From positions 1 through 41,201 of IMG/VR virus record IMGVR_UViG_3300048599_000883: 41,201 nucleotides of DNA. One strand, given 5' to 3'. Shown here piece after piece: positions 3,900 to 35,430 of the stretch. Source of the DNA: a virus (lineage: Duplodnaviria > Caudoviricetes). The position numbers and the translations under genes are program-made. The first letter of the stretch is position 1, and each line of letters starts with the position of its first letter. The notes under the pieces are model-generated. The model saw only the letters and a list, made by a program, of their open reading frames with translations, was not told the origin of the DNA and searched no databases.

Positions 3900-4676
3900 T
3901 CATCCCCATGCGTGCCCTCGGACCCACCCGCGGCCGGCGTCGCCTGGGCGGATGCCGACCCAGCCGGTCACTGTGAAGTTCGTCGAGGACCACATCGAGT
4001 GGTCGGGTGCGGCGAAGCCCTCGACGGGCCCGCCTGGGAGCGTCACGGCCTTGCAGGTGGGGTGCGGGCCGTTCGCCCGGTAGGTGACCGGCGCAGAGCC
4101 GACGCGGACGGCGTGGAGCCCTGCGACGACCTCGGTGAGCGACCCTGAGCTGTCCTGCATCGGGAACCAGGCGTTCGGCGCGTCGTCGGCGACGGCCTCT
4201 TCGTAGGCCTCGATGCCGAGGCTCATGGCGCCGCGGTGCTCGGCGATCCGGGAGTCGGCCAACGCTCGGGACCAGAACGAGACCTGGGTGATCTGGCCGT
4301 CCCAGGAGCCGTTGCCGTAGGGGTGGAACCCGATGTTGAACGTGCCCGAACCGTTCGCCTGGCGGTCATCGCCGCTGTTGCTCGCCGCGCCGATCGACAC
4401 GCCATCGACGAACAGGCTGAGCGTCTCCGCGGAGAGGCGCATCGCGACGTGGTGCCAGGCGCCGATCGTGGGGCGGCCGCCGAACCGGTTGCGATACCCG
4501 GTGTCCCAGATGTCGTTGACGCGGGCGATCCATTGCCCGGCGGGCGACGAGGGGATGCCGGTGCCGCCAGGTCCGGCGCCGGCGGCGATGAGTTGCCACT
4601 CTGCCGGTGGGGTGACCGACGCCTTCGTCCAGACGTAGCGCCGCGAGCCGTCGGGGAGTCCGCTCTCCTCGCTCAT
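3900..4676 (-). CDS. Minor tail protein with a LamG/ConA-like domain (candidate receptor-binding protein)
   Basis: WHHVA...LFVDG...FNIG...WDGQITQVSFWSRAL motifs; ATG at 4676 overlaps the upstream stop. Confidence 0.8.
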   Translation of the reverse strand: MSEESGLPDGSRRYVWTKASVTPPAEWQLIAAGAGPGGTGIPSSPAGQWIARVNDIWDTGYRNRFGGRPTIGAWHHVAMRLSAETLSLFVDGVSIGAASNSGDDRQANGSGTFNIGFHPYGNGSWDGQITQVSFWSRALADSRIAEHRGAMSLGIEAYEEAVADDAPNAWFPMQDSSGSLTEVVAGLHAVRVGSAPVTYRANGPHPTCKAVTLPGGPVEGFAAPDHSMWSSTNFTVTGWVGIRPGDAGRGWVRGHAWG

Positions 4677-7600
4677 TGCCAGGGGAGCCTTCCTGTGGGT
4701 TCGACGCGCGCCGCCGATGCTTCGACAGCGATGACGGCCACCTCGAGCAGGCCGCCGCCGGCGCCCTTGTCGGCCAGCTCGAAGTGGAGCGTGTCGCCGG
4801 CGACGAAGGTGTGCGCCATGGCCAGCCAGATCGTCTGGTGCACGCCTGCGGGGATCCAGATCGGCACGTCGACCTGAACCCCGTTCTTCATCATCCGGAT
4901 CGTCAGGTCCGACGTGAGGGTCCCCATGCACGTGGCCCGGATCCAGGTGAGTCGAACCGGCCGGTCGAACGTCTCCGGCGTCGAGCGGCCCTTGAGCGGG
5001 TCGTCGTTCATGTCGAACAGCTCGCTCTGGGCGAACGGTGCGATTTGGTAGCGGCGCACCACACCGGAGGTGACACCGGTGGAGAGCCACCTGGTCGGCG
5101 TCGCGCCCCGCGAGCCGCCGGCGAGCGTGCCGGTGACCCCGCGGTTCAGCATCGCAGCGGCACGCTCTTCCTCGGTTTCGAGGCGGGTGTGCATCTCGGG
5201 GGTAGTGGTGGCGCGCCCGTCGCTGTCCTCGACGGCCCGGATCCGAACGACGCGACCCGGTTCGGCTCCGGGGAGGGTGATCGTGTCGCCGGTGCGGAAA
5301 GCCCGGTAGGCGGACACGTCGTGGCTCAGCCCTGTGAGCGCTGTGACGATCCGGACGGACTGGCCACCGGCGGCGAGCCGTGCGAGCTCGGCGTCTGCCT
5401 CGGCGATCGCCGCGGTGAGCTCGCGGGTGTCGGCCAGGTCGAGGTCCTCCTCGATCGCTCCGTCGGCGGCGACTCGGGCGGGGTCGGAGCGGACGAACTC
5501 GCCATCGGCCCACGTGACACGGAGCCTGTTCGGCTGCGCCGCGCGGACCTCGCGCTCGAGGCGCTGCAGCGCGTTCGTGCCGTCGACCTGGACCACCGTC
5601 GCGGAGCCCTTGCCGTGGTCGCCCCAGACGTGGAACCGGAGCCCGGGCGCCGCGGCGGACTCGTAGCCGAGGCCGTGCGCCCTGCGGAGCACGTCCCAGA
5701 CCTCGTCGTTCTGGCGGACGGTGGTCTCGGTGTTCAGCGGCCACGGCCGGCCACCGGAGTCGAGGGTCGCGGTGAACGTCGGTGTGAACGCCGCCGGGAT
5801 CGACTCGCGGGCCTTCCCTTCGGCGATCAGCTGCAGCAGGATCGTGCCCCACGACGGAGCGGGGATCGTCGCTGGGTTGTCGAGGCACCACCAGTTCGTG
5901 GTGTCGGACGACATGACGAGCGTCGCCGAGCTGAGCGGGGTGCCCTCACCGTTGACCAGGTGGTGCAGGTTCACCGACACGCAGTGCTCGAGGTTGAACG
6001 TGGCCAGCGTGCCCGGCGCCCAGGACAGGTCGACCATCTGGCCCTTGTCGACCTTGATGCCGATGCGGTGCGTGCCGGCGGTCGCTTGGAACGTCACGCC
6101 GACCGGTTCCCGCCAGGCGTTCGCTGGCGCTGGTGCGGACTGCTCGACCTTGATCCCGTCGATGAAGATCTCGACCTGGTGACAGGCCGCGACCCACAGC
6201 TGGTAGAGGCCATCCGCGGGGAAGGTCGTGTCGCTGACGAACAGGCCGGTGCGCGGCGCCAGGCTCCGGACGTGCGAGCTCGAGATGATCGCGGTCGACG
6301 CGACGGGCCAGCCGTCCGGCGGGAGCCACGGGGTGAACCACGGCGGATCGGTGTTCGGGATGCGCCACGAGTACGAGATGGTCAGCTGTCGGCCGACGGG
6401 CCGAGACCAGCCGGCGAGGCTCATCTCGGGCGAGTGCCATGCGAACGTGCGCAGCGACGACGCCGGCTTCGACCCGACGCCGCCCCACGAGCGGACCTTG
6501 GAGCGGCGCAGCCAGACCCGCGGGTCGGTGACCTTGATCGTGCGCCGGAGCGCATCGCCGCTCAGGGCGTGCTCCACGGTCTTCCCTGGGGCGTTGATGC
6601 GGCCGGTCCAGGCCCAGTCGCCTCGCAGGTGGAAGCGGAGGTGTCGGCCCTCGGTCAGCTGGTCGGCCGCGGTGCGCTCGGCGGTGGTGCCGGTGAGGAC
6701 CTGCAGCTCGCCGGTGCCGAGCTCGACGATGTCGTCGAGCCACTCGCGCGAGCCGCGCACGCACGACACCGTGGCGATCTTGGTGGCGTCGGCTTCGTCC
6801 CACAGCTCGACGGTGATGTCGTCGACCTGGTCGAACGGCTCCGCCGGTGGCGAGGGGAACACGAGCCGTGCGCCGAACCCTCGTGACGCCGCGCCGGCCT
6901 GTGGCATCTCGAACACGGTCGGTCCGAACGACACCACGGGCCCGTGCGCGGTAGAGGGGAGCCGTGGGGCGGGGCCCTCGAGGATGAGGCCGACCTCGGA
7001 GATCTCGACGTCGTGGGTTGCGGTGTCGGTCATCGAGTCGTTGTCGGTGACCGTGAGCGTGATCGTGTAGGTGCCCGGGGTGGTGTAGGTGTGCGAGGTG
7101 GTCGATCCGGAGCCGGGCGGGGTGCTGTCGCCGAAGTCCCAGGACCACGAGACGATCGTGCCGTCGCTGTCGGTGGATCCGGTGCCGTCGACGTCGAAGG
7201 GCACGAGAACCGTGCCGGTGCCGGCGGCGGTGATGTCGGCGACCGGGTCGATGCCGGCGGTGAAGTAGGTGTTGTCGATCCAGTCGTACAGCGCGGTGCG
7301 GTCGCCGGCGCTGAGCGTGGCGTCGAGCACCGCGAGGAACGCGATCCGACCGTCGAAGAAGAACTGGGTGGAGGTGCGGGTCAGCGCACCCATGACGAAG
7401 TTGTCGCGGCTGCCGGTGTCGCCGAACCAGTCGCCGGTGTTCGAACCGCCGGACACCGTGAGGGTCTCGGCGACGTTGTCGATCCGGAGCGCGTAGGCGG
7501 ATCCGGTCGAGGACCACTCGGCGACCATCGCCGAGGTGGTCATGACCGTCGCGCCGCGGACAGCGTCGCCGGTGTCGGCGTTGGCCTGGTTGATCTGCAG

Positions 7601-7972
7601 CCGGCCGGACGCGTCGCCGGTGCCGAGCAGCCACCGGTTCGTCGAGGACGTGTCGGCCGAGGACCAGGAGATCGTGGTGTTGTTGTTGGTTGGCTGGTCG
7701 TGGGCGAGCACGGCGATGACGCAGCCGCCGGTGGCCGAGGTCAGCGCTGATGCGAGGGTGAGGAAGTCGGCGGCGCCGTCGAACTCGACACACGGCTGGG
7801 ACAGCGCAGCGAAGCCCGAGGCGCGCATCGTCGGCCGTGCGCCGCCCGACTGGGTGAGCGTGTGGCCGTTGACCCGGTCGACCCACGAGTCGACCGGGTC
7901 ACCATCGCTGTAGGCGAGGTCGCCTGCCCACCACACCCCGACGGTGGAGGTGAGCGCCGGAGGGGCTGCCAT
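4673..7972 (-). CDS. Large minor tail/hub protein with N-terminal lectin-like and PKD domains (1099 aa)
   Basis: ATG at 7972; LamG-like N-terminus; clear PKD motif (DSDGTIVSWSWDFGD...HTYTTPGTYTITLTVTD); remainder resembles siphovirus hub/Tal proteins (GDTITL...VVRI). Confidence 0.85.
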   Translation of the reverse strand: MAAPPALTSTVGVWWAGDLAYSDGDPVDSWVDRVNGHTLTQSGGARPTMRASGFAALSQPCVEFDGAADFLTLASALTSATGGCVIAVLAHDQPTNNNTTISWSSADTSSTNRWLLGTGDASGRLQINQANADTGDAVRGATVMTTSAMVAEWSSTGSAYALRIDNVAETLTVSGGSNTGDWFGDTGSRDNFVMGALTRTSTQFFFDGRIAFLAVLDATLSAGDRTALYDWIDNTYFTAGIDPVADITAAGTGTVLVPFDVDGTGSTDSDGTIVSWSWDFGDSTPPGSGSTTSHTYTTPGTYTITLTVTDNDSMTDTATHDVEISEVGLILEGPAPRLPSTAHGPVVSFGPTVFEMPQAGAASRGFGARLVFPSPPAEPFDQVDDITVELWDEADATKIATVSCVRGSREWLDDIVELGTGELQVLTGTTAERTAADQLTEGRHLRFHLRGDWAWTGRINAPGKTVEHALSGDALRRTIKVTDPRVWLRRSKVRSWGGVGSKPASSLRTFAWHSPEMSLAGWSRPVGRQLTISYSWRIPNTDPPWFTPWLPPDGWPVASTAIISSSHVRSLAPRTGLFVSDTTFPADGLYQLWVAACHQVEIFIDGIKVEQSAPAPANAWREPVGVTFQATAGTHRIGIKVDKGQMVDLSWAPGTLATFNLEHCVSVNLHHLVNGEGTPLSSATLVMSSDTTNWWCLDNPATIPAPSWGTILLQLIAEGKARESIPAAFTPTFTATLDSGGRPWPLNTETTVRQNDEVWDVLRRAHGLGYESAAAPGLRFHVWGDHGKGSATVVQVDGTNALQRLEREVRAAQPNRLRVTWADGEFVRSDPARVAADGAIEEDLDLADTRELTAAIAEADAELARLAAGGQSVRIVTALTGLSHDVSAYRAFRTGDTITLPGAEPGRVVRIRAVEDSDGRATTTPEMHTRLETEEERAAAMLNRGVTGTLAGGSRGATPTRWLSTGVTSGVVRRYQIAPFAQSELFDMNDDPLKGRSTPETFDRPVRLTWIRATCMGTLTSDLTIRMMKNGVQVDVPIWIPAGVHQTIWLAMAHTFVAGDTLHFELADKGAGGGLLEVAVIAVEASAARVEPTGRLPWQ

Positions 7973-11800: not shown

Positions 11801-12174
11801 TCGCTGCCGAGCCCGCGGGTCCCTTCGGCGAGGCCGGCCTCGATGTTCTCACCTACGCGGCGCCCGGAGTCGGTGCCGACGCCGGAGATCGACGACTCCA
11901 GGCCGCCGTCGATCCCGGCGCCGAGCTGTCGGCCGAGCTCGTCGCCGGCGGAGCCGGCCGAGCTCGACGCTGAATCCGTGATGCGCTTCACCGCGGCGGA
12001 GACGTCGCCGCCGGCCTGGGCGAGCCCGTCTGCGATGCTCGCGCCGAGATCCCGGCCGGCGGACGTGCCCACCGCTGCGAGGATTGGGGCGAGCTGCCGG
12101 TTCATGGCGGCGGACGCACCGTCGAGGCTCGGGATGACCTGCAGCGTGGAGTAGCCGAACACCGGGCTGGTCAC
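8863..12174 (-). CDS. Tape measure protein
   Basis: 1103 aa, Ala/Gly-rich; core DLLDTFNEYSTQF...ADTLKEFAIR; C-terminal ADGG...IVGEKGWEL. Confidence 0.95.
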   Translation of the reverse strand: MTSPVFGYSTLQVIPSLDGASAAMNRQLAPILAAVGTSAGRDLGASIADGLAQAGGDVSAAVKRITDSASSSAGSAGDELGRQLGAGIDGGLESSISGVGTDSGRRVGENIEAGLAEGTRGLGSDLGDQLRSQSTELERRADQVGRDAGGELAAGVNDSFRSGTADLGNSLDPAFASLGSQGFSAGQEAGSDIASGVLSGLAEAGVEIGGEFAELGVEAAARGADLGGAAASGVTSGLASGLAESAAGISNVLGDALGPLGPALTNPATAAGGIIGLALVKGAIDSINFDGVRARLRAELGATELEAERLSGLSKDLFRGNYGGSVEQVAAAVADVRRNAAGLGASTTAELRQISAAALTTAAVWDQDLNQSINAASQLVRTGLVDNSTEAFDLITVGLQGVADKSGDLLDTFNEYSTQFRELGLEGEEALGLITQGIQAGARDADIAADTLKEFAIRAQDGSDTTISGLQALGLEWTAVSDAIAAGGPRASAALDRVLDELRKVEDPAQQAAIAVQLFGTQSEDMQNALLAMDLSTAANEIGEISGAAQDAQDDLAGLESSLETVKRAGLGLGEDVANFILEPIAGLIQAENWGDVGQQIGRLILDGILLPVTGVAGLIARALGFSTGEASELGESTGAALATGFEAGVAKHGWNVAELLGVDIDLVRTKSLDAREATTSFGRELDRLEFSGAMARSGLDAAAAGADAFLQSLEDSTSIDNLLSATLAVDDAMSRVFESVNQIGDLDVSDVAEGLQGVSGEARAALSDIMSAGDAAQQSIAAALEFRGADSARATADRIRDGLLGIFDAAGLSDSQTHELLETMGLLPEQVDVAIAVSGETEAMAKIQVLREFIGGQLDAQGNVHLNAFIGAKIAEGDWATAQSLVEAFAIDMQDGLLENPLLIALNADPTMATEGLTGWIDWAQTENGATVPVDADTVPASDEVNAWERFMLGRPSIDVPVGANTNPADIGVSRWGAAQQGKTFTLDIDADMSRADATIREWFQSRGLFQGVLGGLLPERQLADGGHLGANEPAIVGEKGWELWWPDSAGQILNQSQVAATFGATEAGNTYEISIEDRSGDPMDTAGELIRQLDRRELKVT

Positions 12175-12180
12175 TGCTGG

Positions 12181-12591
12181 CTACTCCTTCCGTTCAGCGA
12201 GTCGATCGAGCTCGGCCTGCCGCCGGGCCTTCGCGGCTTCCCAGACGGCCTCACGGTCGACGGGGCTGCCATCTGCGTCGGGGTCGTCGTCGATCGGGAT
12301 CCGGCCGTGCCACGGCGGGGGCACCTGCCTCGTGACGAGGGCGAGGACAGCGCGGCGGATCTCGTCGAGGATGTGGTCGCGGCGCTCGAACGGCCGCCCG
12401 TAGAGCTCGGTGAGCACAGCGCCGCCGGGGACTGGATGGCGGACCACCAGGGCGTTGATGCGACGCAGCGTGAGCGCCGGGTGGCGCCCGGCTCCCGGGC
12501 GCCACCGGTCTCTGATGTCGACCCCGCGGGTCTGGAGGTCGGCCTCCACAGCGGATGCGTGGTCACGCAGCAGCTGCAGGAGGCCGGTCAT
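12181..12591 (-). CDS. Tail assembly chaperone, -1 frameshifted C-terminal part
   Basis: AVEADLQ..GVDIRD.W motif; lies in the -1 frame of the upstream chaperone at a GGGGGAA site. Confidence 0.85.
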   Translation of the reverse strand: MTGLLQLLRDHASAVEADLQTRGVDIRDRWRPGAGRHPALTLRRINALVVRHPVPGGAVLTELYGRPFERRDHILDEIRRAVLALVTRQVPPPWHGRIPIDDDPDADGSPVDREAVWEAAKARRQAELDRLAERKE

Positions 12592-12866
12592 TCCCCCGCG
12601 GTCTTGAACCCCATGGCGACGGCGATGTGGCCGGCGAGCTCGTCGAGCTCAGACCGGCGCGCCGATCGGCCGAGGTGGCGCCACTGCTCGGGTCCGACGA
12701 GTCCCTCGATCGCCGCGGCGTTGTGGCCTCTCGAGAAGTACGCCATCGTCTCGATCGTCGGGTCGGGGTCGATCTCGTAGACCGTCCCCTTCCACTCGAA
12801 CGTGGTCGGGATGCCCGAGACCTCCGCCTGTTCGGCGGAGGCCTCGGCGTCGGCGTGTTCGCTCAC
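12588..12866 (-). CDS. Tail assembly chaperone
   Basis: Between tail tube and tape measure genes; LVGPEQW motif; ends at the slippery site. Confidence 0.85.
   Translation of the reverse strand: MSEHADAEASAEQAEVSGIPTTFEWKGTVYEIDPDPTIETMAYFSRGHNAAAIEGLVGPEQWRHLGRSARRSELDELAGHIAVAMGFKTAGE
12591..12597 (-). other. Programmed -1 ribosomal frameshift slippery site GGGGGAA
   Basis: Minus strand GCG GGG GAA TGA; the -1 frame reads GGA ATG ACC GGC into the next ORF. Confidence 0.85.
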
Positions 12867-13408
12867 GACGACGTGACCAGACCGCGCTGGATCAGGAACA
12901 GCCCGGAGTCGGTGTCCGGGAAGATCGTCGCGATGAACGGGTGCCGCTCCGACTGCGACTCGCCTTCGGTGGTGTCGCCGTTGATCCGCACCTCGGCCTC
13001 GTTCTTCGAGATGCGCCGCTGCTTGATCCCGCGGCCGGTGTCGTAGGTCTCGAAGCCGATCTTCACGCGCTCGGGGCCCCGCTGGTACTGGACACCGTCC
13101 TCGATGTGCTCGAGCCGATCGATCGTCGGGTTGGTCTCCAGAGCGGTGAACGTCTTCGTGGTCGTCACGCCGGACTCGAGATCCGCGATCTGGATGTTGC
13201 CCCAGGCGCTCTCGGTCGAACGCGTCGAGGTGCGCCCGGTCGTGAAGCCCTGGCCGCCGTCGAGGAGGCCGACGGCATCCCAGCCCTCACCGAACTCGTC
13301 GTTGAGCGTCTCCGGCGGCTCCGGGAACACGCCCGCGATCGCGAACGCGATGTAGACGATCGCGTTGCGCCACGCGCGTGCGTTGTCGGGGTTGCCCCAA
13401 TCGGGCAT
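12863..13408 (-). CDS. Major tail (tube) protein
   Basis: ATG at 13408 after AAGGAGG; GNPDNARAW...WDAVGLLDGGQGF...FTALETN; ends in ...VTSS. Confidence 0.9.
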   Translation of the reverse strand: MPDWGNPDNARAWRNAIVYIAFAIAGVFPEPPETLNDEFGEGWDAVGLLDGGQGFTTGRTSTRSTESAWGNIQIADLESGVTTTKTFTALETNPTIDRLEHIEDGVQYQRGPERVKIGFETYDTGRGIKQRRISKNEAEVRINGDTTEGESQSERHPFIATIFPDTDSGLFLIQRGLVTSS

Positions 13409-13463
13409 GGTCGACCTCCTTGGTCGGTGGTGGTTGACCGCGCCCGATCTGGGGCGGTTCGCG

Positions 13464-13889
13464 CTAGGCGAGGGTGGAGCGCATCTCCATGCGCACGGTC
13501 GAGGCGGCGATCTCGCCGCCCGTCGACGGGTCCTCGCCGGGCTGCACACCCGTGAGGAACGTGACGCCGCAGACGCCGCCGAACCCCGGGTGGGCGAGCA
13601 GCACGCCCTGGGCGAGGGCACAGAGCCGCTTCGCTCGGCCGGTGGTTGCGGCGTACGCGACGAGACGGATCGTCTGGAAGGCCAAGAGCAGACCGTCGCC
13701 GCCCGGGGTGGCGTCCCACGCGACGAGCACGTGCTCGTCGGATTCGGGGGTCCAGTCCTCGGGCAGGTCGACGGCGACGGTCACCGGGGCATTCACGTCG
13801 GCAGCCCAGCGGGAGGGGAGCTGGTCGCCGAGCCAGAGCGTCGCGGCCTCCTGGCCGTCGGCGAAGACGTAGACGGGGAGCTCGGTCAC
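13464..13889 (-). CDS. Tail terminator-like protein
   Basis: Upstream of the tail tube gene; LVAWD...IRLVAYA...AKRLCALAQGVLLAHPG. Confidence 0.75.
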   Translation of the reverse strand: MTELPVYVFADGQEAATLWLGDQLPSRWAADVNAPVTVAVDLPEDWTPESDEHVLVAWDATPGGDGLLLAFQTIRLVAYAATTGRAKRLCALAQGVLLAHPGFGGVCGVTFLTGVQPGEDPSTGGEIAASTVRMEMRSTLA

Positions 13890-14158
13890 TTCGTCGTCAC
13901 CTCGTGGCCTGCTGCGCCGGCGGCGCGGGTCCAGATGCCGTCGCGCACCGCCCAGGTCCGGGCCCGTACGTCGCGGATCGTCACCGACGCCGCCGAGCGG
14001 TCCGTTCGGTAGGTGTCGACGACCACGTCGGCGTCGGGCTGGATGGCCTCGACGTTCCGGGCGATCGCCTGAGCCTCCGACCGGCACGCCTGGGTGGCCT
14101 CGGGACTGTTGAGCACGGTGAGGAACCCAGCGCGGTTCGGGCGGAACGCCGCCGTCAT
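13886..14158 (-). CDS. Neck/head-tail joining protein
   Basis: FRPNRAGF..VLNS...YRTDR..ASV...DG...RAAG pattern of actinophage neck proteins; coupled overlaps. Confidence 0.75.
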   Translation of the reverse strand: MTAAFRPNRAGFLTVLNSPEATQACRSEAQAIARNVEAIQPDADVVVDTYRTDRSAASVTIRDVRARTWAVRDGIWTRAAGAAGHEVTTK

Positions 14159-14523
14159 CAGAGCGTGCCGCGGGTGAGCAGCTCGAGCAGGCCGTGGCCC
14201 TGGATCACAGCGTCCTCGTCCTCGTAGACGTGCGTCGCGCCGCTCCGGGTGCGGATCGTGACCGTCGAGATCCCTTCCTCGCCCGGGGCGGTGGCGTCGA
14301 CCGACTCGATGCTGGCCAACCGGAGGCGTGTGCCGGCGAGCTCGACCCACTCCGCCGGCCCAGCCTCGGTCTGGTCGATGTCGTCGAGGCGCTCCGCGAT
14401 GCGGCGCAGCTCGACCTGCACGGCGTTGCCCGGCTGTGAGCCGTCGAGCATCGAACGCTGCCGGTCCTGCTCGTCGAGCAGCTCGGCAACCTGGCGCAGG
14501 ATGTCGCCGTCGGTGTCGCTCAT
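14158..14523 (-). CDS. Hypothetical protein inserted in the neck module
   Basis: 121 aa, translationally coupled on both sides; no motif recognised. Confidence 0.7.
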   Translation of the reverse strand: MSDTDGDILRQVAELLDEQDRQRSMLDGSQPGNAVQVELRRIAERLDDIDQTEAGPAEWVELAGTRLRLASIESVDATAPGEEGISTVTIRTRSGATHVYEDEDAVIQGHGLLELLTRGTL

Positions 14524-14885
14524 CCTCGACCTCGCTTCAGTCGGATCTCGATGCCGGCGGTGCCGAGTCCGGACTCGGCCTCCGCCCAGACCGCAGGAAC
14601 GCCCTCGACCTGGTAGGTGGCGCCGTCGACCTCGACCCGGTCGACGTCGGCCAGGTCGAGCACGACGCCTTCGGGCAGGTCCTCGACCGCTGACAGGTCC
14701 GGGAGCGCCGGCCGGTAGAGCGACAGGTCGACGGCGACGCCGTCTCGGCCTCGGCCGCCGACGTCGGCGGAGTTCCGTGGGCCCATGTGGCAGTCGTCGA
14801 CGTCGACCCGGATCGGCTCGCCGGCGACTGGGGTCCCGAGCGGGTCACGCCCGCCCGGGTGGTCCCAGATGAGCGTGGCGATCAC
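14520..14885 (-). CDS. Head-to-tail stopper
   Basis: GRDPLG N-terminus and DRVEVDGATYQVEGVPAVW...IRLKRGRG C-terminus; GTG at 14885. Confidence 0.8.
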   Translation of the reverse strand: MIATLIWDHPGGRDPLGTPVAGEPIRVDVDDCHMGPRNSADVGGRGRDGVAVDLSLYRPALPDLSAVEDLPEGVVLDLADVDRVEVDGATYQVEGVPAVWAEAESGLGTAGIEIRLKRGRG

Positions 14886-15499
14886 TCGAACTCGCCGACC
14901 CAGACCGAGTGCGCCCACGGCGTCGGGTCGGCGTAGGGCCGCTGCTCGAGCTCGTCGGTCTGGGTCCAGCCGCCGGCACGCTTCGTGCGCACCAGGGTGC
15001 ACTCGCGGGCCGCTCCGGACTCGCCGGAGAGCAGGACCTCGTCGAGGGGCAGGTGGTACCCGGTCGGGACCGTCACCAGCAGCTGGCCACCGGGGGCCAG
15101 GAGACCGCGGAGGTGCTCGAGCGCAGCGATCGCCGCGCCCGGGTCGAGGTCCTCGGGCTGGCCCTCCCAGCCGACGTGTTCGATCGTGCTGATCGACACG
15201 ATGGCGTCGTACTCGCCCTCGATGTCGAACAGGTCGACGTTCTCGACGCCCTCGGCGACCTCGAACAGGTCGACGATGCGGTACGTGCCGCCGGCGATCG
15301 GCTCGGCGAGGCCGTAGTGGCTGAGCACGTTGCCGACCTCGAGCACCGCCGGCGCCTCGCCGGTCTCGCCGGCCCGGGCGCCGACACCCGCGAGGAACAG
15401 CTCGGCGATCGGGATCTCGACGCGCCGCTCGTTGAGCTTCGTGTCGTTGTACTCGTGGTCGAAGCCCTCGAGCTCGATGCCGTGGAACTTGAACTTCAT
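14882..15499 (-). CDS. Class I SAM-dependent methyltransferase (DUF268-like)
   Basis: VLEVGN motif I, YDAIVSISTIEHVG, LLAPGGQLLVTVP; has its own AGGAGG RBS. Confidence 0.85.
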   Translation of the reverse strand: MKFKFHGIELEGFDHEYNDTKLNERRVEIPIAELFLAGVGARAGETGEAPAVLEVGNVLSHYGLAEPIAGGTYRIVDLFEVAEGVENVDLFDIEGEYDAIVSISTIEHVGWEGQPEDLDPGAAIAALEHLRGLLAPGGQLLVTVPTGYHLPLDEVLLSGESGAARECTLVRTKRAGGWTQTDELEQRPYADPTPWAHSVWVGEFE

Positions 15500-15514
15500 A
15501 GGGGTGCCTCCTGG

Positions 15515-16105
15515 TCAGGCGTTGTGCGAGTTGTGCCAGTGGTGCGCCCCGAAGCAGTAGGGGTGCGCCGTGGCGTGGTCCTCGCCGCGGCGGTGCTTCT
15601 CGTTCCACAGGTACGGGCTGAAGCACACGGGCGGCAGGCAGAGCACGTCGGAGCGGTCACGGAGCGTGTCCTGGGCGACCTTCGGGCCCGAGTGGAGGGC
15701 TCCGAGGGGGAGCCGTTCGATGGCGAGCTCGATGCACTCGAGGAACGCCGGGTGGCCCGGGCGCGAGCCGAGCACGGCGTCGTTGAGCGACCACGGGGAC
15801 TCCCACGTGGCGAACGCCTCGAGGCCGATCAGCGGGTCGAGCCGCCGGTAGAGCTCGACGTCGCTGTCGAGGTAGATCCCGCCCCAGGTCCAGAGCGCCT
15901 CGAGGCGGATGAGCCCGGCGCGCTGTGCACCGTTGAGGCACTGGTCCCAGTGGCCGGCGGTGAGCGGGAACAGCGCTGGGTCGATCGGGTCGCGCAGGTC
16001 GAGGAACTCCCAGCCGGGGTGGAGCTCCTGGGTGTGCGCCCAGAAGCCGTCGACCTCGGCGGTGGTGTGCTCGGGGACCGTTCGGATGATCCGACGGGGG
16101 ATCAC
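15515..16105 (-). CDS. Glycosyltransferase, GT32/DxD sugar-binding type
   Basis: MIPRRI start, HPGWEF, RLEALW..GGIYLDSDVE, PGHP and GP motifs. Confidence 0.92.
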   Translation of the reverse strand: MIPRRIIRTVPEHTTAEVDGFWAHTQELHPGWEFLDLRDPIDPALFPLTAGHWDQCLNGAQRAGLIRLEALWTWGGIYLDSDVELYRRLDPLIGLEAFATWESPWSLNDAVLGSRPGHPAFLECIELAIERLPLGALHSGPKVAQDTLRDRSDVLCLPPVCFSPYLWNEKHRRGEDHATAHPYCFGAHHWHNSHNA

Positions 16106-16710
16106 CGCTCGGCGATCAGGGCCCGCATCTGGGCCTCGTCGTTCACGGCCGCCCAGTAGCGCTGGGCGAGCACGGCGTTGGGGCGGTGGCGCTCGGATCC
16201 GATGTCGCGCACCGCGGGGTGCCAGAGCGACACGGCGAGGCCACGGTGGCGGACGACGCCGGAGAAGCACGTCGCTACGGCGACCAGCTGGTCGTCTTCG
16301 CCGCCCCAGCCACTGAACCGCTCGTCCTGGCCACCGATCAGGTCCCAACCGGCGGCCGAGACCACGATGACACCGCCGTTGGCGAGCCCGGGCCGGCTGT
16401 CGGTGCCGGCGTAGAGGCACTGGTCGAACGGGTAGTGCAGCCGGCGGTCGCCGGCATCGGCGAGCGCTGCGATGAGCCCGCTGGGTGACGGGACCGTGTC
16501 GGCGTCGGTGATCACGAACCGGTCGTGGCCTGCAGCTGCAGCAGCGGCGGCTCCGGCGTTTCGACAGGCGCCGAGGTTGAAGATCTCGTGGTCGGTGTCG
16601 ACCTCGAACACCTCAGCGTCGGGCAGGTGCTGGGCGTACCAGCCGAGGACGAAGTCGTGGGCGGCCTGCCGCGTCGGCGAGGGCCGCCACGGGACGATGA
16701 GTGCGGTCAT
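16102..16710 (-). CDS. Glycosyltransferase, GT-A fold with a GT7/galactosyltransferase C-terminal motif
   Basis: IVPWR, FN...RNAG, DAD, GGQDERFSGWGGEDD and LWH motifs. Confidence 0.92.
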   Translation of the reverse strand: MTALIVPWRPSPTRQAAHDFVLGWYAQHLPDAEVFEVDTDHEIFNLGACRNAGAAAAAAAGHDRFVITDADTVPSPSGLIAALADAGDRRLHYPFDQCLYAGTDSRPGLANGGVIVVSAAGWDLIGGQDERFSGWGGEDDQLVAVATCFSGVVRHRGLAVSLWHPAVRDIGSERHRPNAVLAQRYWAAVNDEAQMRALIAER

Positions 16711-17645
16711 CCGGCGAGCTTCTCCAGGTGGTCGACGAACAGGTCGAGATCGACGGCGGGGTCGAGCTGGGCGGAACGCTGCGAGGCGAGTTCGGATGCG
16801 GCCGCCCACTCGTCGGGGTCCTTCAGCCGCTCGATCTCGGCGACCCAGCCGTCGATGTCGTCGCGGTCGACGAAGATGCCGGCGGTGCCGAGCGACTCGA
16901 TCAGCCCGCCTGTGGGGTGTGCGATGACCGGGATGCCCGAGGCCATCGCCTCGACCCCGGTGCGGCCCCACGACTCGCTCTGCGACGGCATCAGCAGCAC
17001 CCGGGTCCGGGCGTAGACGGCGTCGCGCATCTTCGGCGTGGTCTGGATCGTCTCGACGTTCGGGCACCGCGGGATGACCTGGTGGCCGTAGTCGCCGCGC
17101 ACCCCGAGGAACCCGGTCATCGGCATGCGCTCGGCGATACGCCACATGACCCGGCCGCCCTTCGGCTCGGAGAGGTTCACGAGGGTGACCAGGTCGCCGG
17201 GCGTGGTGGCGTAGTCGGCAGGGTCGACCGGCGGCCGGCACACGACCGACGAGCAGCTGTGCGAGGTGGCGGCCTCGAGCGACGTGCTGTTGAACACTGC
17301 GAGCGCGGCGCCGGCGAGCTCGTCACCGGTGAACCTGCTGTGCACCATCCGGACTGACGGCCGACCGACCTCGGCGGCGATCTGGGAGCCGAGCCGGCCG
17401 TCGCCGCAGTGCGACACGACGACATCCGCGTCGCGGGCGAGGTTCACGGCGTGCATGCGGCCGCGGATCCCGCCGGTGTCGACGGTGATCCCGTCGATCG
17501 TGTAGCCGCGCTCGTCGGACAGCGCCGAGAACACGTGCACCTGGTGGCCACGGCCGAGGGCGTGGCGCAGGAACTCGTGGGTGGCGAGCCAGGCACCGAC
17601 GCGGCTCTGAGGCGGGTAGAGCGGCGTGACCGCAACGATCCTCAC
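16707..17645 (-). CDS. Glycosyltransferase, GT4 (GT-B fold)
   Basis: RGHQVHV, KGG and PSQSESWGRTGVEAMASGIPVI (Ex7E) motifs. Confidence 0.95.
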   Translation of the reverse strand: MRIVAVTPLYPPQSRVGAWLATHEFLRHALGRGHQVHVFSALSDERGYTIDGITVDTGGIRGRMHAVNLARDADVVVSHCGDGRLGSQIAAEVGRPSVRMVHSRFTGDELAGAALAVFNSTSLEAATSHSCSSVVCRPPVDPADYATTPGDLVTLVNLSEPKGGRVMWRIAERMPMTGFLGVRGDYGHQVIPRCPNVETIQTTPKMRDAVYARTRVLLMPSQSESWGRTGVEAMASGIPVIAHPTGGLIESLGTAGIFVDRDDIDGWVAEIERLKDPDEWAAASELASQRSAQLDPAVDLDLFVDHLEKLAG

Positions 17646-18091
17646 AGGAGGTCCCTCCAGTCGACGTCGTAGTCGTCGAAGCCGACGTCTGGGGTCTCGA
17701 GCTCACCGCGGGTGGTCGAGATGGTGCCGAGACCGCGGATGCCCTTCGAGCGGATCCCGACGCGTGCCTTCTCCTCGTCGGAGAGCGACATGCCGAGCGC
17801 GTACCAAGCGGCGACGCTCTTCGAGAACGGCCCGGACACCTGCTGGGTGATGCCCTTGGGGTTGAAGTAGACGCGGGCGGCGACCTCGAGCACGACGCTG
17901 CGCGCCTCGCCGAGCTGGACCTCGGACACGTCCGGCTCAGGCTCGCCGTCCTCGCCCACCCACGCGCGGTCCGTCTCGGATCGCACGAGGGTGGACGCGG
18001 CGGTGAGGATGGCCTCCGCCCGCGAATCGTTCGTGACCGGGTCAGGGACCCACGTCACGAACGTCTCAAGATCGACGAGCGGAGGCAGCAT
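17642..18091 (-). CDS. Head-to-tail adaptor
   Basis: Follows the capsid gene; AEAIL..AS.LVR...VAARVYFNPKG.TQQVSGPFS. Confidence 0.88.
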   Translation of the reverse strand: MLPPLVDLETFVTWVPDPVTNDSRAEAILTAASTLVRSETDRAWVGEDGEPEPDVSEVQLGEARSVVLEVAARVYFNPKGITQQVSGPFSKSVAAWYALGMSLSDEEKARVGIRSKGIRGLGTISTTRGELETPDVGFDDYDVDWRDLL

Positions 18092-19056
18092 CAGGAGCCG
18101 GCGCGGGTGATCTTCACCGCACGGATGAACTGCAGGTCCGTGCCGTTCTCGTTGTCCGGCTCCTCCGCGGCGACCCAGCGGCCGTCGTCGTCGAACTCGC
18201 CGTGGTCCTGCACGATGTTCGTGCCCACGAACGAGTCGAAGCCCAGGATGTCCTGCCAGGCGTCAGCGGACGGGTCGAACGCCCGGATGGCGCGCATCGC
18301 GAAGCCGCCCTTGGACATCGTGGTGCCCCACGGCACGCCCTCGGGCACCTGGGGCACCTTCGAGGAACCCGCGTACGCGGTGCGGTGGAACGCGAAGCCC
18401 TCGTCGGGGTCGAGCGCGGCGGAGACGAGGATGCGACCGAACCCGGCGAGCGGGAGGATCATCGCCTCGCGCAGCGCCGCGTTGCCGCTGTCACCTGCGG
18501 AGTCGGCCCGGCGGGCCTGGTCCGACGTGATGATGTCCTCGGCGATGTTCGCCCCGACGACGGCGACGCGGCCCGACTGGGGCACGAACGCCATGTTGAG
18601 GTGCTTGCCGGCGCGGGCGAACGAACGCTGGGGATCGTCGGGGTCGAACGCCACGGACTTCGCGTACGTCGCGCTGCCCATGAGGTCGGCGACCTCGTCC
18701 TCCCAGCCCTGCACCATGCCGGCGGAGATGGGCTGGAGGACCTGAGCGCCGAAGTCCTCGATGTCGAGCGTGAGCTCGGCGTCGGTGATCTCGACGTCCT
18801 TGTAGAGGTTGGTGGTCAGCGTGACTGCCACCGTGCCCTCGGCCAGCCCGTCGCGAGTGCGGGTCGCGCCGGAGCGCAGACCGCGCTTGCGTGCGGACGT
18901 CACGGCGGGGATGCGGAGGGTGATCGTGTCGCCCTTCGCGCCCTTGAAGTCGCCGGCGGGATCGAGCCAGATGAGCTGGGGGAGCACGGTCTCGCGGCGC
19001 AGGGCCCCGATCAGTGCGCCGACCACCTTCTCGGCCTTGATGAACTCCATCGCCAC
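18091..19056 (-). CDS. Major capsid protein
   Basis: 321 aa after the scaffold gene; DFKGAKGDTITLRIP, ELTLDIEDFGAQVL.P, AFHRTAY; ends in ...ITRAGS. Confidence 0.93.
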   Translation of the reverse strand: MAMEFIKAEKVVGALIGALRRETVLPQLIWLDPAGDFKGAKGDTITLRIPAVTSARKRGLRSGATRTRDGLAEGTVAVTLTTNLYKDVEITDAELTLDIEDFGAQVLQPISAGMVQGWEDEVADLMGSATYAKSVAFDPDDPQRSFARAGKHLNMAFVPQSGRVAVVGANIAEDIITSDQARRADSAGDSGNAALREAMILPLAGFGRILVSAALDPDEGFAFHRTAYAGSSKVPQVPEGVPWGTTMSKGGFAMRAIRAFDPSADAWQDILGFDSFVGTNIVQDHGEFDDDGRWVAAEEPDNENGTDLQFIRAVKITRAGS

Positions 19057-19121
19057 GGGGGACCTCCTTGGTCATGGGGGTGTGACCGCGTCGGCTCCGT
19101 GGCGGGGCCGTGCGGGGTTCC

Positions 19122-19658
19122 TCAGGGCCGGGGGATGGCGTCCGCGAGCTTGTCGGGGTCCATCTCCTCGACCTCCTCGGTCGGGTCCGTCCCGCCCCTC
19201 AGGGACTCGGACGGCTTGCTCGATGGCGGCGGGGTCGGCTTCTTCTCCGTGGCACCCGCGGGGAACTGCTCGAGGATCTCGTCCGCGTCGGCGGCGAGCT
19301 CCTCGATGGTGCTGCCGCTGAGCCGCTTCGCCTGGCCGGCGGTGAGGCCCTTGTCGAGAGCGACCTGGAGCCGGTCAGCGCGCTGGGCTTCGCTCGTGGC
19401 CTTGGCCTCGGCGGCGGCGAGCTTGTCGGCGGCCTTCTGAGCCTCCGACTTCTGCTCCTCCTCGAGCGCGTCGAACTTGTCGGCCTTGGCCTTGAGCTCG
19501 TTGTTCTTCGTGCGAGCTCCGGCGTTCTCCTGGCGGAGGCTCCGGACCATCGCCCTGAGCTCTTCGGGGTCGTCGGGCAGGTCGCCCTTCTTCGGCTCGT
19601 CCTTCTTCGGCTCCGGCTTCTTGCCGTCGTCCTTCGGGTCGTCGGTGCCTGGTGGCAT
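19122..19658 (-). CDS. Capsid scaffolding protein
   Basis: Charged coiled coil; KSEAQK, AKRLSGSTIEELAADADE and LRGG.DP motifs. Confidence 0.9.
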   Translation of the reverse strand: MPPGTDDPKDDGKKPEPKKDEPKKGDLPDDPEELRAMVRSLRQENAGARTKNNELKAKADKFDALEEEQKSEAQKAADKLAAAEAKATSEAQRADRLQVALDKGLTAGQAKRLSGSTIEELAADADEILEQFPAGATEKKPTPPPSSKPSESLRGGTDPTEEVEEMDPDKLADAIPRP

Positions 19659-19742
19659 GTGGTGGCCCTCCTGGGGCGTGTACCCCCGCCTCCTGGGCGG
19701 GGTCGGTCCGCGGTGTGCGGAGCGAATTGGGGTGCTGGTGGT

Positions 19743-20459
19743 TCAGCTCGAGCCGACCCAGGCGCGGACGCGGGCGTTCGCGTCGGCGCGCTGGGCGTCG
19801 GTCAGGTCGCGGCGCATGAACTGGGCGACCCGTTGGGTGTCGCCCCAGCCGTCGATGTAGAGCGGCTGCGAAGAGCAGCTGCAGCTGTCGTGCGCGGCGA
19901 AGTGCCGGGTGGCCTCGTCGTACACAGCCCCTCGGTCAGCGAGGTTCGAGCAGAACTTGCAGGCGGATCCGGAGGTGACCCGGCGGTACCCGCGGGCGGC
20001 GGGGTCGGCCTTGGTCGTCTCTGCGATGGTCTCGCGGCCGCCGGCGAGGGCGTGGCGCATGCCCGATGCCGCCGACGTCGCCTGAGCGGTCTCCGCTGCA
20101 GCGGCGAGCGGCCGGGCGAGCGTCATCGCCTGCTTGAGCGCTACCGGTCCGGTCACGGTCAGCGACGTCGTCAGGGCCGTGACGTCGACCGCGGACATGA
20201 CGACCGGGGCGAACATCTCGCCGACGGCGAGCAGCCTCGACACGTTCAGGAAGTCCGCGGCGAGCCGCGCCGACTCCGTGCGCCGCTGCTGTATCACCCG
20301 CGTTGAGACGAGCAGCCAGTTCGGCGTCGTCTCGTCGAGACGCTTCGGGTCGATCAGCGACCAGGTGGCGAGGAGATCGGCGACCGTTGCGACTCCGAGC
20401 CGGGCCTGAGCGAGCCGATGGGCCTCGGTGATTCGCGACGCCTCGAGCGTCGCGCTCAC
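19743..20459 (-). CDS. MuF-like minor head / capsid maturation protein
   Basis: Follows the portal gene; GGRET, RRV...CKFC..LA.RGAVY...AHDSCSC motifs. Confidence 0.85.
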   Translation of the reverse strand: MSATLEASRITEAHRLAQARLGVATVADLLATWSLIDPKRLDETTPNWLLVSTRVIQQRRTESARLAADFLNVSRLLAVGEMFAPVVMSAVDVTALTTSLTVTGPVALKQAMTLARPLAAAAETAQATSAASGMRHALAGGRETIAETTKADPAARGYRRVTSGSACKFCSNLADRGAVYDEATRHFAAHDSCSCSSQPLYIDGWGDTQRVAQFMRRDLTDAQRADANARVRAWVGSS

Positions 20460-33935: not shown

Positions 33936-34102
33936 GACGCACCGCCAGGGATCGCGCGCAGGTGGCCCCGTGACGTGGGAGAGTTGCTGGGCGAGACCGA
34001 CATCGGTGGAGTGGACACCTCGGGTCGGGCCCGCCCAGCAGGCGTGGCGCCACAGGCGGCGCAGCCCGGCACGTGGCACTCGATCGTGGACTGCTCGCTC
34101 AT
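33932..34102 (-). CDS. Small hypothetical protein
   Basis: 56 aa with ATGA/GTGA overlaps; CH..GC..C. Confidence 0.5.
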   Translation of the reverse strand: MSEQSTIECHVPGCAACGATPAGRARPEVSTPPMSVSPSNSPTSRGHLRAIPGGAS

Positions 34103-35430
34103 GCCGTCACCGGCCTGGTGCGCAGCACGTAGGTGAACTGCTCGACCTTCACGACGTAGAGGTCGGACTTGAGTCGGGACAGCGCCTGGAGCAGCTGCTC
34201 GTTCGTCGCGTCCGAGATCTGGCGGGCGAGCTGGTCGAGGTGCCATCGCGCTCCCGGGACGCCGGTGAGCATCACGTCGACGATCTGGCGGGGGACCCCG
34301 AGGATCGCGTCCGGCGACGGGATGGCGAACTCGAGCACCGTCGGCTCGTCGTCGGGTTCGGTGGCCGGCGGGGTGGGGGCAGGGTCGCCATCCGCCAGAA
34401 CGGTGCCTGCCGCGCCCTCCCCGCCGGCGTTCTCGTCGGCCGCCGGTGGATCGGCGTGCTCGAGCGTTGACGGTTCGGGCTCCGGGCCGCGCTCGTTGGC
34501 CTGGTAGACGCCCGGCGAGATGCGACGGAGCCTGTTCTTCGCTGCGAGGTTGGCCATGGTGGCGCCGACGTTCTTCACCTTCGGATGGCCCAGGACGTCG
34601 GCGACCGACGCCGGGTCCCACTCCTCGGCCGGGTACGCATCGAGCAGCGCGACGATCCGATCGGTCAGCCGGTGCGTGTCGTCGAGCGGAGGCTCATGCA
34701 TCTGGGACCCCCCCCGCTCGATCGGGCCGCCCCACGCCTCGACCTGGTCGCCGTCCTCGGCCGGGGTGACATCGGGGGTAAAGGTTTCAGCGGCGATGTC
34801 ACCTTCGGAGGTGCCGGCGCCCGGCGGGGCGATCACGACGTGGTCGACCAGGGCGTCGTCGACCTCGGTCGTGCCCGTCGAGACGTGGGAGCCGTCGTGC
34901 CCGGGCGGCAGCGTGCAGGCGAAGCCGAGCACGTCCGCAGGGCACACGGCGGCGGGGTCATCGTCGGTGGCCGGCTGGCCCGCCACCCACGTCATGTCGT
35001 CGACGCTGCTGCGGTGCGCGCCGGCGTGGCCGGCCTCTCGGTCGCACACGGTGAAGTCGCCGTCGCTGATCCAGGACGCACCGCAGTAGTGGGGCGTGCT
35101 GGCGGTGTACCCGACCGGTGCGAAGCCATCGGGCCCGGTGGGCTCGCCGAAGACACTCCCCAGAGGGGCGACCCAGATCCGCCCGTCGCCTGGGAGTTGC
35201 GTCACGCCGGCGAGCGTGCGGAGGTCCTTCTCGTCCTGGTCGAGCAGCGCATCGATGTCGGCCCTGATCGCCTCGGCGCTGGCGGGGCCTTCGGTCATCG
35301 CATCGAACACGTCCTCGGGGATGCCTGCGCCGGCGGGCGCGGGATCCGGGGGGTCGATGGTGACGTTGCAGGTCACGGTCGTCTCTGGGCCGGTCGAGCT
35401 GAACGTCAGGTTGAGGTTGATGGTTGTCAC
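34099..35430 (-). CDS. Mosaic protein with two C-C-H-H fingers and two winged helices
   Basis: C..C....GH.G.H twice; LTDRIVALL...LAAKNRLRRISPGVY winged helix plus a second helix-turn-helix-like C-terminal unit; acidic linkers. Confidence 0.7.
   Translation of the reverse strand: MTTINLNLTFSSTGPETTVTCNVTIDPPDPAPAGAGIPEDVFDAMTEGPASAEAIRADIDALLDQDEKDLRTLAGVTQLPGDGRIWVAPLGSVFGEPTGPDGFAPVGYTASTPHYCGASWISDGDFTVCDREAGHAGAHRSSVDDMTWVAGQPATDDDPAAVCPADVLGFACTLPPGHDGSHVSTGTTEVDDALVDHVVIAPPGAGTSEGDIAAETFTPDVTPAEDGDQVEAWGGPIERGGSQMHEPPLDDTHRLTDRIVALLDAYPAEEWDPASVADVLGHPKVKNVGATMANLAAKNRLRRISPGVYQANERGPEPEPSTLEHADPPAADENAGGEGAAGTVLADGDPAPTPPATEPDDEPTVLEFAIPSPDAILGVPRQIVDVMLTGVPGARWHLDQLARQISDATNEQLLQALSRLKSDLYVVKVEQFTYVLRTRPVTA

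What the first reader, a model, noticed from the sequence alone, without database searches (positions are those of the whole stretch)
14882..17645. Three glycosyltransferases plus a methyltransferase built into the head-neck operon: a candidate methylated-glycan virion coat
Seen: GT4, GT7-like, GT32-like and class I methyltransferase genes sit between the head-to-tail adaptor and stopper. They are joined by GTGA/ATGA overlaps or a 15-nt gap, so they would be expressed with structural proteins. The major capsid protein ends in ...ITRAGS and the tail tube protein in ...LVTSS. Known: some mycobacteriophages (e.g. Che8) use phage-encoded glycosyltransferases to O-glycosylate a C-terminal serine of capsid and tail-tube subunits. 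Inferred: this phage builds an oligosaccharide with several linkage types on its virion, and the methyltransferase caps or decorates it. As far as I recall, a methylated virion glycan encoded inside the neck module of a phage lacking lysin B is not characterised.
Basis: partly seen in the sequence, partly recalled or inferred. Interest (0 to 1): 0.9.

Follow-up and report, generated by a model that had tools for sequence, protein, structure and literature searches.

The report
Phage virion sugar-coating cassette with methyltransferase
This actinobacterial prophage carries three sugar-transferase genes and a methyltransferase gene inside its head-neck genes, which likely hang a small, possibly methylated glycan on the terminal serine of its capsid and tail-tube proteins, a trait already described in mycobacteriophages but here built from mostly different enzymes.

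Summary
Observation confirmed: GT4, GT7-like, GT32-like and class I methyltransferase genes lie coupled between head-tail adaptor and head closure; capsid ends ITRAGS, tail tube LVTSS. Among relatives picked by capsid or portal (not by glycosyltransferase), capsids end in Ser in 57 of 61 clusters with a head-module glycosyltransferase against 16 of 36 without; the tree-corrected test points the same way but misses significance (median p 0.06). The methyltransferase family lies within three genes of a sugar enzyme in 41 of 50 clusters. Best reading (0.7): O-glycosylation of capsid and tail-tube C-termini; methylated glycan about 0.5; nothing biochemical is shown. The idea is not new: Corndog has an O-methyltransferase plus three glycosyltransferases in its virion operon, proposed in 2015 to add methyl and glycan groups to the capsid, and Che8 gp108 carries the same methyltransferase domain. 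Different here: a GT4 family and an unrelated DUF268-like methyltransferase, and no GT25-like enzyme. Against: the lineage with the closest GT7 and GT32 has non-Ser capsid ends, and Ser ends occur without detectable glycosyltransferases. The scan noted such cassettes on other DNA (61 findings match the search words). New variant of a known kind; interest 0.35.

The parts
18091..19056 (-). Major capsid protein, ends ...ITRAGS; predicted glycan acceptor (terminal Ser)
   Evidence: phrog_283 E 2e-38; C-terminus
17642..18091 (-). Head-tail adaptor Ad1 (upstream neighbour)
   Evidence: phrog_137 E 3e-15
16707..17645 (-). GT4 (GT-B fold) glycosyltransferase, soluble; candidate initiating enzyme
   Evidence: Pfam PF00534/PF13692; phrog_26352 E 2e-97; model pLDDT 97.6, best Z 31.2, rmsd 2.4, 309 aligned, to a GT4 enzyme; 40% to TurkishDelight gp20
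16102..16710 (-). GT7-like (GT-A) glycosyltransferase, same PHROG as mycobacteriophage 'galactosyl transferases'
   Evidence: PF02709, phrog_1721, 217 phage records at about 26-29% in the rows shown; weak pairwise match to Che8 gp109 (E 2e-4)
15515..16105 (-). GT32-like DxD glycosyltransferase
   Evidence: PF04488; 46% to Phrappuccino gp142
14882..15499 (-). Class I SAM-dependent methyltransferase fold, DUF268-like; substrate unknown, likely the glycan
   Evidence: Pfam weak hits; 325 homologues; model pLDDT 96.5, Z 11.8, rmsd 2.9, 148 aligned, tied among many methyltransferases; Atlas neighbours DUF268/Methyltransf_11
14520..14885 (-). Head closure / stopper Hc1 (downstream neighbour)
   Evidence: phrog_501 E 9e-13
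12863..13408 (-). Tail tube protein, ends ...GLVTSS; predicted second acceptor
   Evidence: phrog_117 E 2e-11; C-terminus

Best explanation
The four coupled genes are a virion glycosylation cassette that likely attaches a short O-linked glycan to the C-terminal serine of the capsid and tail-tube subunits, and the methyltransferase likely O-methylates that glycan. Shown: gene identity, order and coupling inside the late structural operon, no membrane segment, intact motifs, Ser ends, and the association across relatives. Inferred: the enzymes act in the cytoplasm during lytic growth on host nucleotide sugars (the cassette has no donor-synthesis gene); the GT4 probably makes the first, alpha-linked sugar-Ser bond, because it is the only glycosyltransferase in the head module of many Streptomyces-type prophages whose capsid and tail tube end in Ser; the GT7-like and GT32-like enzymes would extend the chain (beta and alpha linkages by family knowledge, recalled); the methyltransferase would be an optional cap, one of several interchangeable decorating enzymes. 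Odds: glycosylation of virion C-termini 0.7; methyl group on that glycan about 0.5 overall.
For: (1) Relatives chosen by capsid or portal profile, 197 complete capsids in 127 clusters at 90% identity (61 with an inserted glycosyltransferase, 36 without, 30 cut short): last residue Ser in 57 of 61 against 16 of 36 (Fisher p 1e-7); Ser/Thr in the last two 61 of 61 against 21 of 36; at 70% identity 32 of 33 against 12 of 24; tail tube 19 of 25 against 12 of 28, p 0.025. Counting the 30 undetermined as negative gives 27 of 66. (2) L416 and L426 nest with strong support in a cassette-bearing clade ending KLTLGS, lack the cassette in that slot and end KLTLGA and KLTLGV. (3) In 160 GT4-family loci, 123 hold structural genes; 109 of 110 distinct capsids and 91 of 93 tail tubes have Ser/Thr in the last two residues, against terminal Ser in 2 of 93 portals, 3 of 101 adaptors, 2 of 97 closures and 10% of all other called genes. 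(4) Che8 (KTGS, SDGS) and Corndog (LVGS, KGDS), both reported glycosylated (PMC12363180), end the same way; three cultured relatives with no annotated glycosyltransferase genome-wide end in Pro, Ala or Val. (5) Methyltransferase family: 41 of 50 clusters lie within three genes of a glycosyltransferase or nucleotide-sugar enzyme; in one of the nine exceptions it stands alone before the portal, yet 4 of 5 records carry GT4, followed by GT7 and GT32, after the capsid gene. (6) The insert slot in relatives also holds TylF-like and FkbM methyltransferases, a sulfotransferase, a pyruvyl transferase and a deacetylase; TylF and FkbM include sugar O-methyltransferases (recalled). (7) GT4 includes protein Ser O-GlcNAc transferases GtfA and SdgB (Z 25.1 and 24.4).
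Against: No glycan, activity or expression was observed. Independent-pair tests are not significant: 6.1 against 0.5 of 13 pairs and 5.7 against 0.3 of 10 pairs, median p 0.0625 each; with the last-two-residue trait p 0.125. The lineage holding the closest GT7 (62%) and GT32 (67%) has capsids ending TDCSRG/E or PLVCA and a second capsid-like gene ending EEALV/T/I; only one of two tail-tube paralogues ends ...LASA. 16 of 36 cassette-less clusters still end in Ser, and 8 such records scanned whole (33-91% complete) showed no glycosyltransferase with my profiles, one having a TylF-domain protein. 37 of 160 GT4-family loci are not in phage structural modules. The four nearest capsid relatives include three without GT4 (L246, L247, L393), so the initiating enzyme is not fixed. 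17 of 37 fully spanned cassettes have no methyltransferase. The methyltransferase lacks the second Gly of the usual motif I (EVGNV) and its fold gives no substrate. The GT4 loci are dominated by related Streptomyces prophages and only identical sequences were merged.
Confidence: 0.7

Rival explanations
1. The cassette modifies the virion, but not as drawn: the acceptor is an internal Ser/Thr or another structural protein, or the methyltransferase acts on a protein side chain or the terminal carboxylate rather than on a sugar.
For: The same GT4-GT7-GT32 trio serves a lineage whose capsid does not end in Ser; tail terminators end in Ser in 47 of 89 GT4 loci; fold neighbours of the methyltransferase include N-, C- and carboxyl methyltransferases with tied scores; host-dependent methylation of a phage tail protein is reported (PMC13445384, passages).
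Against: Ser/Thr within the last two residues in 61 of 61 cassette-bearing capsid clusters; the methyltransferase family tracks sugar enzymes, also in large sugar-gene clusters without capsid genes in view.
Confidence: 0.15
2. The enzymes modify host surface glycans or a receptor (lysogenic conversion or superinfection exclusion).
For: PHROGs files the GT7 family under moron/host takeover; the phage is temperate (integrase and repressor); 37 of 160 GT4-family loci lie outside structural modules, most in Streptomyces or Kitasatospora chromosomes.
Against: No membrane segment (best 19-residue hydropathy 1.0-1.3); genes are coupled on both sides into the late operon, with no sigma-70-like promoter in 12000-20000 (a weak test in an actinobacterium); it does not explain the Ser association.
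Confidence: 0.06
3. The enzymes glycosylate or methylate phage DNA before packaging, as protection against restriction.
For: GT4 matches PF20706 'GT4 in conflict systems' over its generic C-terminal part (E 7e-10); GT-B fold is shared with T4 alpha-glucosyltransferase (Z 20.6) and phage HY126 glycosyltransferase (Z 21.2).
Against: Those scores are ten Z units under the GT4 matches; no base-hydroxylating or nucleotide-modifying gene was recognised among the called genes scanned; no DNA-methyltransferase profile hits the methyltransferase; it does not explain the Ser association.
Confidence: 0.05
4. The genes are intact but idle or dispensable cargo in this prophage.
For: Cassette content turns over quickly between close relatives.
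Against: All four frames are open with conserved motifs, base composition matches the operon, and the same four families recur together in seven methyltransferase clusters.
Confidence: 0.04

Closest known systems
Cluster O mycobacteriophage Corndog gp35-gp38 (PMC4351075, passages; PMC11600133, passages; record)
   Same: One methyltransferase plus three glycosyltransferases coupled inside the virion structural operon; capsid and tail tube end in Ser (LVGS, KGDS); the paper proposes methyl and glycan modification of the capsid; gp37 matches my GT7 profile.
   Different: Sits between portal and protease; gp35 is TylF-like with no similarity to the window's methyltransferase; gp38 is GT25-like and has no counterpart here; no GT4 or GT32; lytic phage of a mycolate host.
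Mycobacteriophage Che8 gp108-gp110 (Freeman et al. 2023, not held; known here through PMC12363180, PMC11256854, PMC13445384 passages)
   Same: Phage-encoded glycosylation of capsid and tail tube; both end in Ser (KTGS, SDGS); gp109 is GT7-like; gp108 carries a TylF-like methyltransferase domain, 54% identical to Corndog gp35.
   Different: Genes at the right genome end; the enzyme called essential, gp110, is GT25-like and absent here; methyltransferase of another family.
Streptomyces phage TurkishDelight gp20
   Same: Only cultured phage in the collection with this GT4 family, a two-domain GT4 between capsid and tail-tube genes; both proteins end in Ser (GSTS, CVAS).
   Different: No GT7, GT32 or methyltransferase beside it; function annotated only.
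Mycobacteriophage Phrappuccino gp142-gp145
   Same: GT32-like (46%), two GT7-like and a class I methyltransferase in tandem.
   Different: Outside the structural operon; no GT4 in the stretch seen; methyltransferase not matched by the window's.
Chlorovirus PBCV-1 A064R and A061L (PMC9614988, passages)
   Same: Virus-encoded glycosyltransferases and class I methyltransferases build and O-methylate a capsid glycan; biochemically shown.
   Different: Eukaryotic giant virus, N-linked glycans; I did not compare the sequences.

Membership tests
Actinobacteriophage virion O-glycosylation system (Che8/Corndog/Myrna type) | Phage-encoded soluble glycosyltransferase genes | tested here: met
   Three glycosyltransferases, no membrane segment
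Actinobacteriophage virion O-glycosylation system (Che8/Corndog/Myrna type) | Ser at the C-terminus of capsid and tail tube (C-terminal attachment recalled from Freeman 2023; Ser ends read from the records) | tested here: met
   ITRAGS and GLVTSS; Che8 and Corndog end in Ser
Actinobacteriophage virion O-glycosylation system (Che8/Corndog/Myrna type) | GT7-like enzyme of the Che8 gp109 / Corndog gp37 kind | tested here: met
   phrog_1721; shared cluster label; pairwise E 2e-4 only
Che8/Corndog cassette in the narrow sense | GT25-like essential enzyme (Che8 gp110, Corndog gp38) | tested here: not met
   gp110 and gp38 hit PF01755; none of the window's four does and phmmer finds no match
Che8/Corndog cassette in the narrow sense | TylF-like O-methyltransferase | tested here: not met
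   Corndog gp35 and Che8 gp108 hit PF05711; the window's enzyme does not, no phmmer match, no tblastn hit in cultured phages
Actinobacteriophage virion O-glycosylation system (Che8/Corndog/Myrna type) | Glycan detected on virion proteins, dependent on the phage genes | not testable with these tools
   Needs virions and MS
GT4 glycosyltransferase | GT-B fold with EX7E motif | tested here: met
   E224-E232 invariant in 73 aligned sequences; Z 31.2, rmsd 2.4, 309 aligned
Class I SAM-dependent methyltransferase | Rossmann-like fold with SAM-binding residues | tested here: met
   Z 11.8, rmsd 2.9, 148 aligned; invariant E54, G56, D77 and nearly invariant D89; motif I is atypical (EVGNV)
Sugar O-methyltransferase | Methyl transfer to a sugar hydroxyl | tested here: inconclusive
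   Gene context favours it (41 of 50); structure matches are tied across substrates; DUF268 is linked to glycosylation gene clusters without biochemistry (PMC7614267, passages)
T4-type DNA glucosylation | DNA glucosyltransferase plus a modified-base pathway | tested here: inconclusive
   T4 alpha-glucosyltransferase Z 20.6 against 31.2 for GT4; no modified-base gene recognised, but most early genes have no family

The most novel reading that the evidence does not exclude
The GT4 family is an undescribed initiating protein O-glycosyltransferase that reads a free C-terminal serine tag on capsid and tail tube, working alone in many Streptomyces-type prophages and, with GT7, GT32 and a DUF268-like cap, building a methylated virion glycan in non-mycolate actinobacterial phages; this would make glycan coats common outside mycobacteriophages, give DUF268-like enzymes their first substrate, and offer a two-residue glycosylation tag.
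Probability: 0.35. Interest if true: 0.6.

Novelty: new variant of a known kind. Interest (0 to 1): 0.35.

Why it matters
Virion glycosylation has been shown for three mycobacteriophages (as cited in PMC12363180). If right, this cassette shows the trait is reached with other enzyme families (GT4, GT32, DUF268-like) in phages of other actinobacteria, where antibody shielding is unlikely to be the selective reason, so the glycan's natural role (stability, adsorption, protection from proteases or grazers) becomes the open question. The single-GT4 prophages give a minimal system for testing a C-terminal Ser tag. The concept itself, including a methylated capsid glycan, has been proposed since 2015, which caps the surprise.

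Tried and rejected
Freeman et al. 2023 is not held, so whether it already reports methylated sugars on Che8 or Corndog is unknown to me; its text and supplements bear directly on novelty. Ten paper searches; two searches returned nothing, and none listed a characterised methylated phage-virion glycan or a paper on this GT4 family, in an open-licence library only. PMC13419713 held only an abstract-length text without the terms; PMC12582341 adds one sentence. Single-sequence scans with capsid and tail tube gave 2 and 1 loci; profiles were needed. tblastn of the methyltransferase against cultured phages: no match. PDB sequence and fold searches gave no specific methyltransferase neighbour. No sequencing run was listed. 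The methyltransferase profile found nothing in five GT4-bearing records, three of them at least 90% complete. PF00535 found no match over the cut-off in 19 cassette-less records; L426 was not held, so loss of the cassette elsewhere in that genome is unchecked. A suspected glycosyltransferase in L267 proved to be a tail-tube-like protein. The host could not be named: integrase relatives carry only 'Actinomycetota'. No complex prediction was run (enzyme-substrate pairs are poorly served). Rejected: that the adaptor-closure slot is special; that the methyltransferase is a Corndog gp35 homologue.
Full report
Setting. The window is a 41,201-base virus record with integrase at one end and a repressor-like gene at the other; its proteins are also held on a 348,013-base contig, so it is most likely an integrated prophage. 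GC is about 71%. Endolysin is an M15 peptidase and no lysin B was recognised. Relatives point to an actinobacterial host: the best GT4 match among GTDB genomes is an Aquihabitans prophage at 52%. The host is inferred, not identified.

Observation. Order on the - strand: capsid, adaptor, GT4, GT7-like, GT32-like, methyltransferase, head closure, an unknown 121-aa gene, neck, terminator, tail tube. Four of five junctions are 4-base overlaps; the fifth is a 15-nt gap with a ribosome-binding site. Family calls: PF00534, PF02709, PF04488 over their cut-offs; the methyltransferase only under cut-off (PF13489, DUF268). Models are confident (pLDDT 97.6 and 96.5). GT4 is a GT-B enzyme closest to GT4 structures (Z 31.2, rmsd 2.4, 309 aligned; GtfA 25.1; T4 alpha-glucosyltransferase 20.6; Foldseek agrees). 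The methyltransferase is class I with tied matches near Z 11-12. None has a membrane segment. Base composition equals the flanks.

Is it a recurring unit? Profiles were built from 80 of the 120 listed methyltransferase homologues and relatives and 73 GT4 sequences. Genes were called with my own caller, which reproduced the window's genes, clustered and labelled from PHROGs and Pfam scans of representatives; some labels (gt132, gt143, gt147) rest on weak hits. All four families stand together in seven methyltransferase clusters, in the window's order in five (L013, L014, L015, L016, L034/L041), usually right after the capsid gene. Of 160 GT4-family loci, 123 carry structural genes; in most the GT4 is the only glycosyltransferase and follows the capsid gene directly. 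There, 88 of 110 distinct capsids end in Ser, 9 in Thr, and 109 have Ser/Thr in the last two places; tail tubes 82 and 91 of 93. Other structural proteins mostly do not (portal 2 of 93, adaptor 3 of 101, closure 2 of 97, neck 0 of 79; tape measure 14 of 59; terminator 47 of 89). This set is rich in related Streptomyces prophages.

Controlled test. To avoid selecting on the glycosyltransferase I fetched loci by capsid profile (best 80 of 325 and of 255) and portal profile (best 80 of 566). 197 complete capsids of the window's family fell into 127 clusters at 90% identity: 61 with a glycosyltransferase between capsid and tail tube (the window included), 36 spanned without one, 30 too short and set aside. 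Terminal Ser: 57 of 61 against 16 of 36 (p 1e-7); the four exceptions have Ser second from last. At 70% identity 32 of 33 against 12 of 24 (one mixed cluster and 15 undetermined left out). Tail tubes: 19 of 25 against 12 of 28. On capsid trees built without the last 12 residues the cassette changes state at least 15 times; independent pairs go the expected way 6.1 against 0.5 (13 pairs) and 5.7 against 0.3 (10 pairs), median p 0.0625 in both, so the corrected test is suggestive only. The clearest case is L416/L426, nested among KLTLGS capsids with cassettes, which carry a 599- or 498-aa gene in the slot (the 599-aa one with a weak Ig-like hit) and end KLTLGA and KLTLGV. Among cultured phages, hand-picked from the rows: Che8, Corndog, TurkishDelight and Sephiroth (all with glycosyltransferases) end in Ser or Ser-Ala; Attoomi, YesChef and Legacy (none annotated, whole genomes seen) end in Pro, Ala or Val; OhShagHennessy and Dulcita (head region only) end TVPA/TVSA and TVTA/TVSV.

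Results against. A terminal Ser does not imply a glycosyltransferase: eight Ser-ending records without a cassette, scanned whole but only 33-91% complete, showed none. The lineage with the closest GT7 and GT32 and the same GT4-GT7-GT32 order has capsids that do not end in Ser. Three of the four nearest capsid relatives lack GT4 and begin their insert with a GT7-like gene, so my choice of GT4 as initiator rests on the single-GT4 prophages. 37 GT4 loci lie outside phage modules.

The methyltransferase. Its family lies within three genes of a glycosyltransferase or nucleotide-sugar enzyme in 41 of 50 clusters (81 calls in 80 loci; two clusters are pieces of one locus). In the largest exception it sits alone before the portal, but 4 of 5 records have the GT4-GT7-GT32 trio after the capsid gene, so it travels with the trio even when apart. 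It is optional: 20 of 37 fully spanned cassettes hold any methyltransferase, drawn from several families (TylF-like, FkbM, others), next to sulfo-, pyruvyl- and nucleotidyl-transferases. This pattern fits interchangeable glycan decoration; it does not prove the substrate.

Prior knowledge. Cresawn 2015 (PMC4351075, passages) describes an O-methyltransferase and three glycosyltransferases between portal and protease of Corndog, finds them in infected cells but not in purified virions, and suggests they add methyl and glycan groups to the capsid. Later papers (passages) cite Freeman 2023 for glycosylated capsid and tail tube in Che8, Corndog and Myrna and name gp110/gp38 as essential; I could not read that paper. 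I found that Che8 gp108 ends in a TylF-like domain 54% identical to Corndog gp35, so the characterised systems already include a methyltransferase. A methylated, virus-made capsid glycan is biochemically shown in chlorovirus PBCV-1 (PMC9614988, passages). Earlier notes of this scan describe similar cassettes in other genomes (61 findings match the words) and a Ser-tag association in a Streptomyces-type phage (seen after my own test); they are not counted as evidence.

Verdict. It works like the mycobacteriophage virion glycosylation systems and meets their general features, but fails membership in the narrow Che8/Corndog cassette (no GT25-like enzyme, no TylF-like methyltransferase). New variant of a known kind. 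Glycosylation of virion C-termini 0.7, methylated glycan about 0.5, interest 0.35.

Noticed in passing
L182, L188, L195, L199-L201, L203, L204, L208, L209 and about 25 more GTDB loci: The same GT4 family occurs in Streptomyces and Kitasatospora chromosomes outside phage modules, mostly beside proteins that share a C-terminal beta-rich domain of roughly 135 aa (weak Ig-like hit) behind NHL-like, Gly-rich or unknown N-termini; possibly a domesticated protein-glycosylation pair.
   Followed up: partly
L416:1803-3602, L426:11025-12521: Capsid relatives that lack the cassette and the terminal Ser carry one 599- or 498-aa gene in the same slot, the former with a weak Ig-like hit; a decoration protein may replace the glycan.
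   Followed up: partly
L012:6172-7347 (Che8 gp108): Annotated only as a glycosyltransferase, it is a GT2 fused to a TylF-like methyltransferase 54% identical to Corndog gp35.
   Followed up: yes
GT4-family loci L093-L245: Tail terminator ends in Ser in 47 of 89 distinct sequences, a possible third acceptor or a lineage effect; the window's own ends RSTLA.
   Followed up: no
L166:8234-14064 (Aquihabitans sp. G128): Cultured host with a prophage holding adaptor-GT4-two further transferases-closure; capsid ends VTSS, tail tube ALASA; a possible bench model.
   Followed up: partly
L288:2906-5052, L395:7739-8897, L352:8242-8898, L431:3893-4477: Same slot holds a GT29-like/cytidylyltransferase fusion with a HAD phosphatase, a sulfotransferase with a kinase-like gene, a pyruvyl transferase, and a deacetylase: wide chemical variety of predicted coats.
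   Followed up: no
window 14158-14523 (-): A 121-aa gene of unknown function is coupled between head closure and neck; weak phrog_20755 hit.
   Followed up: no
window 3900-7972 (-): Distal tail proteins with PKD and concanavalin-like (LamG) domains, likely carbohydrate-binding receptor parts.
   Followed up: no
window 34099-37784 (-): A 496-aa ParB-like protein and a 443-aa acidic, Pro-rich protein with no family in the early region.
   Followed up: no
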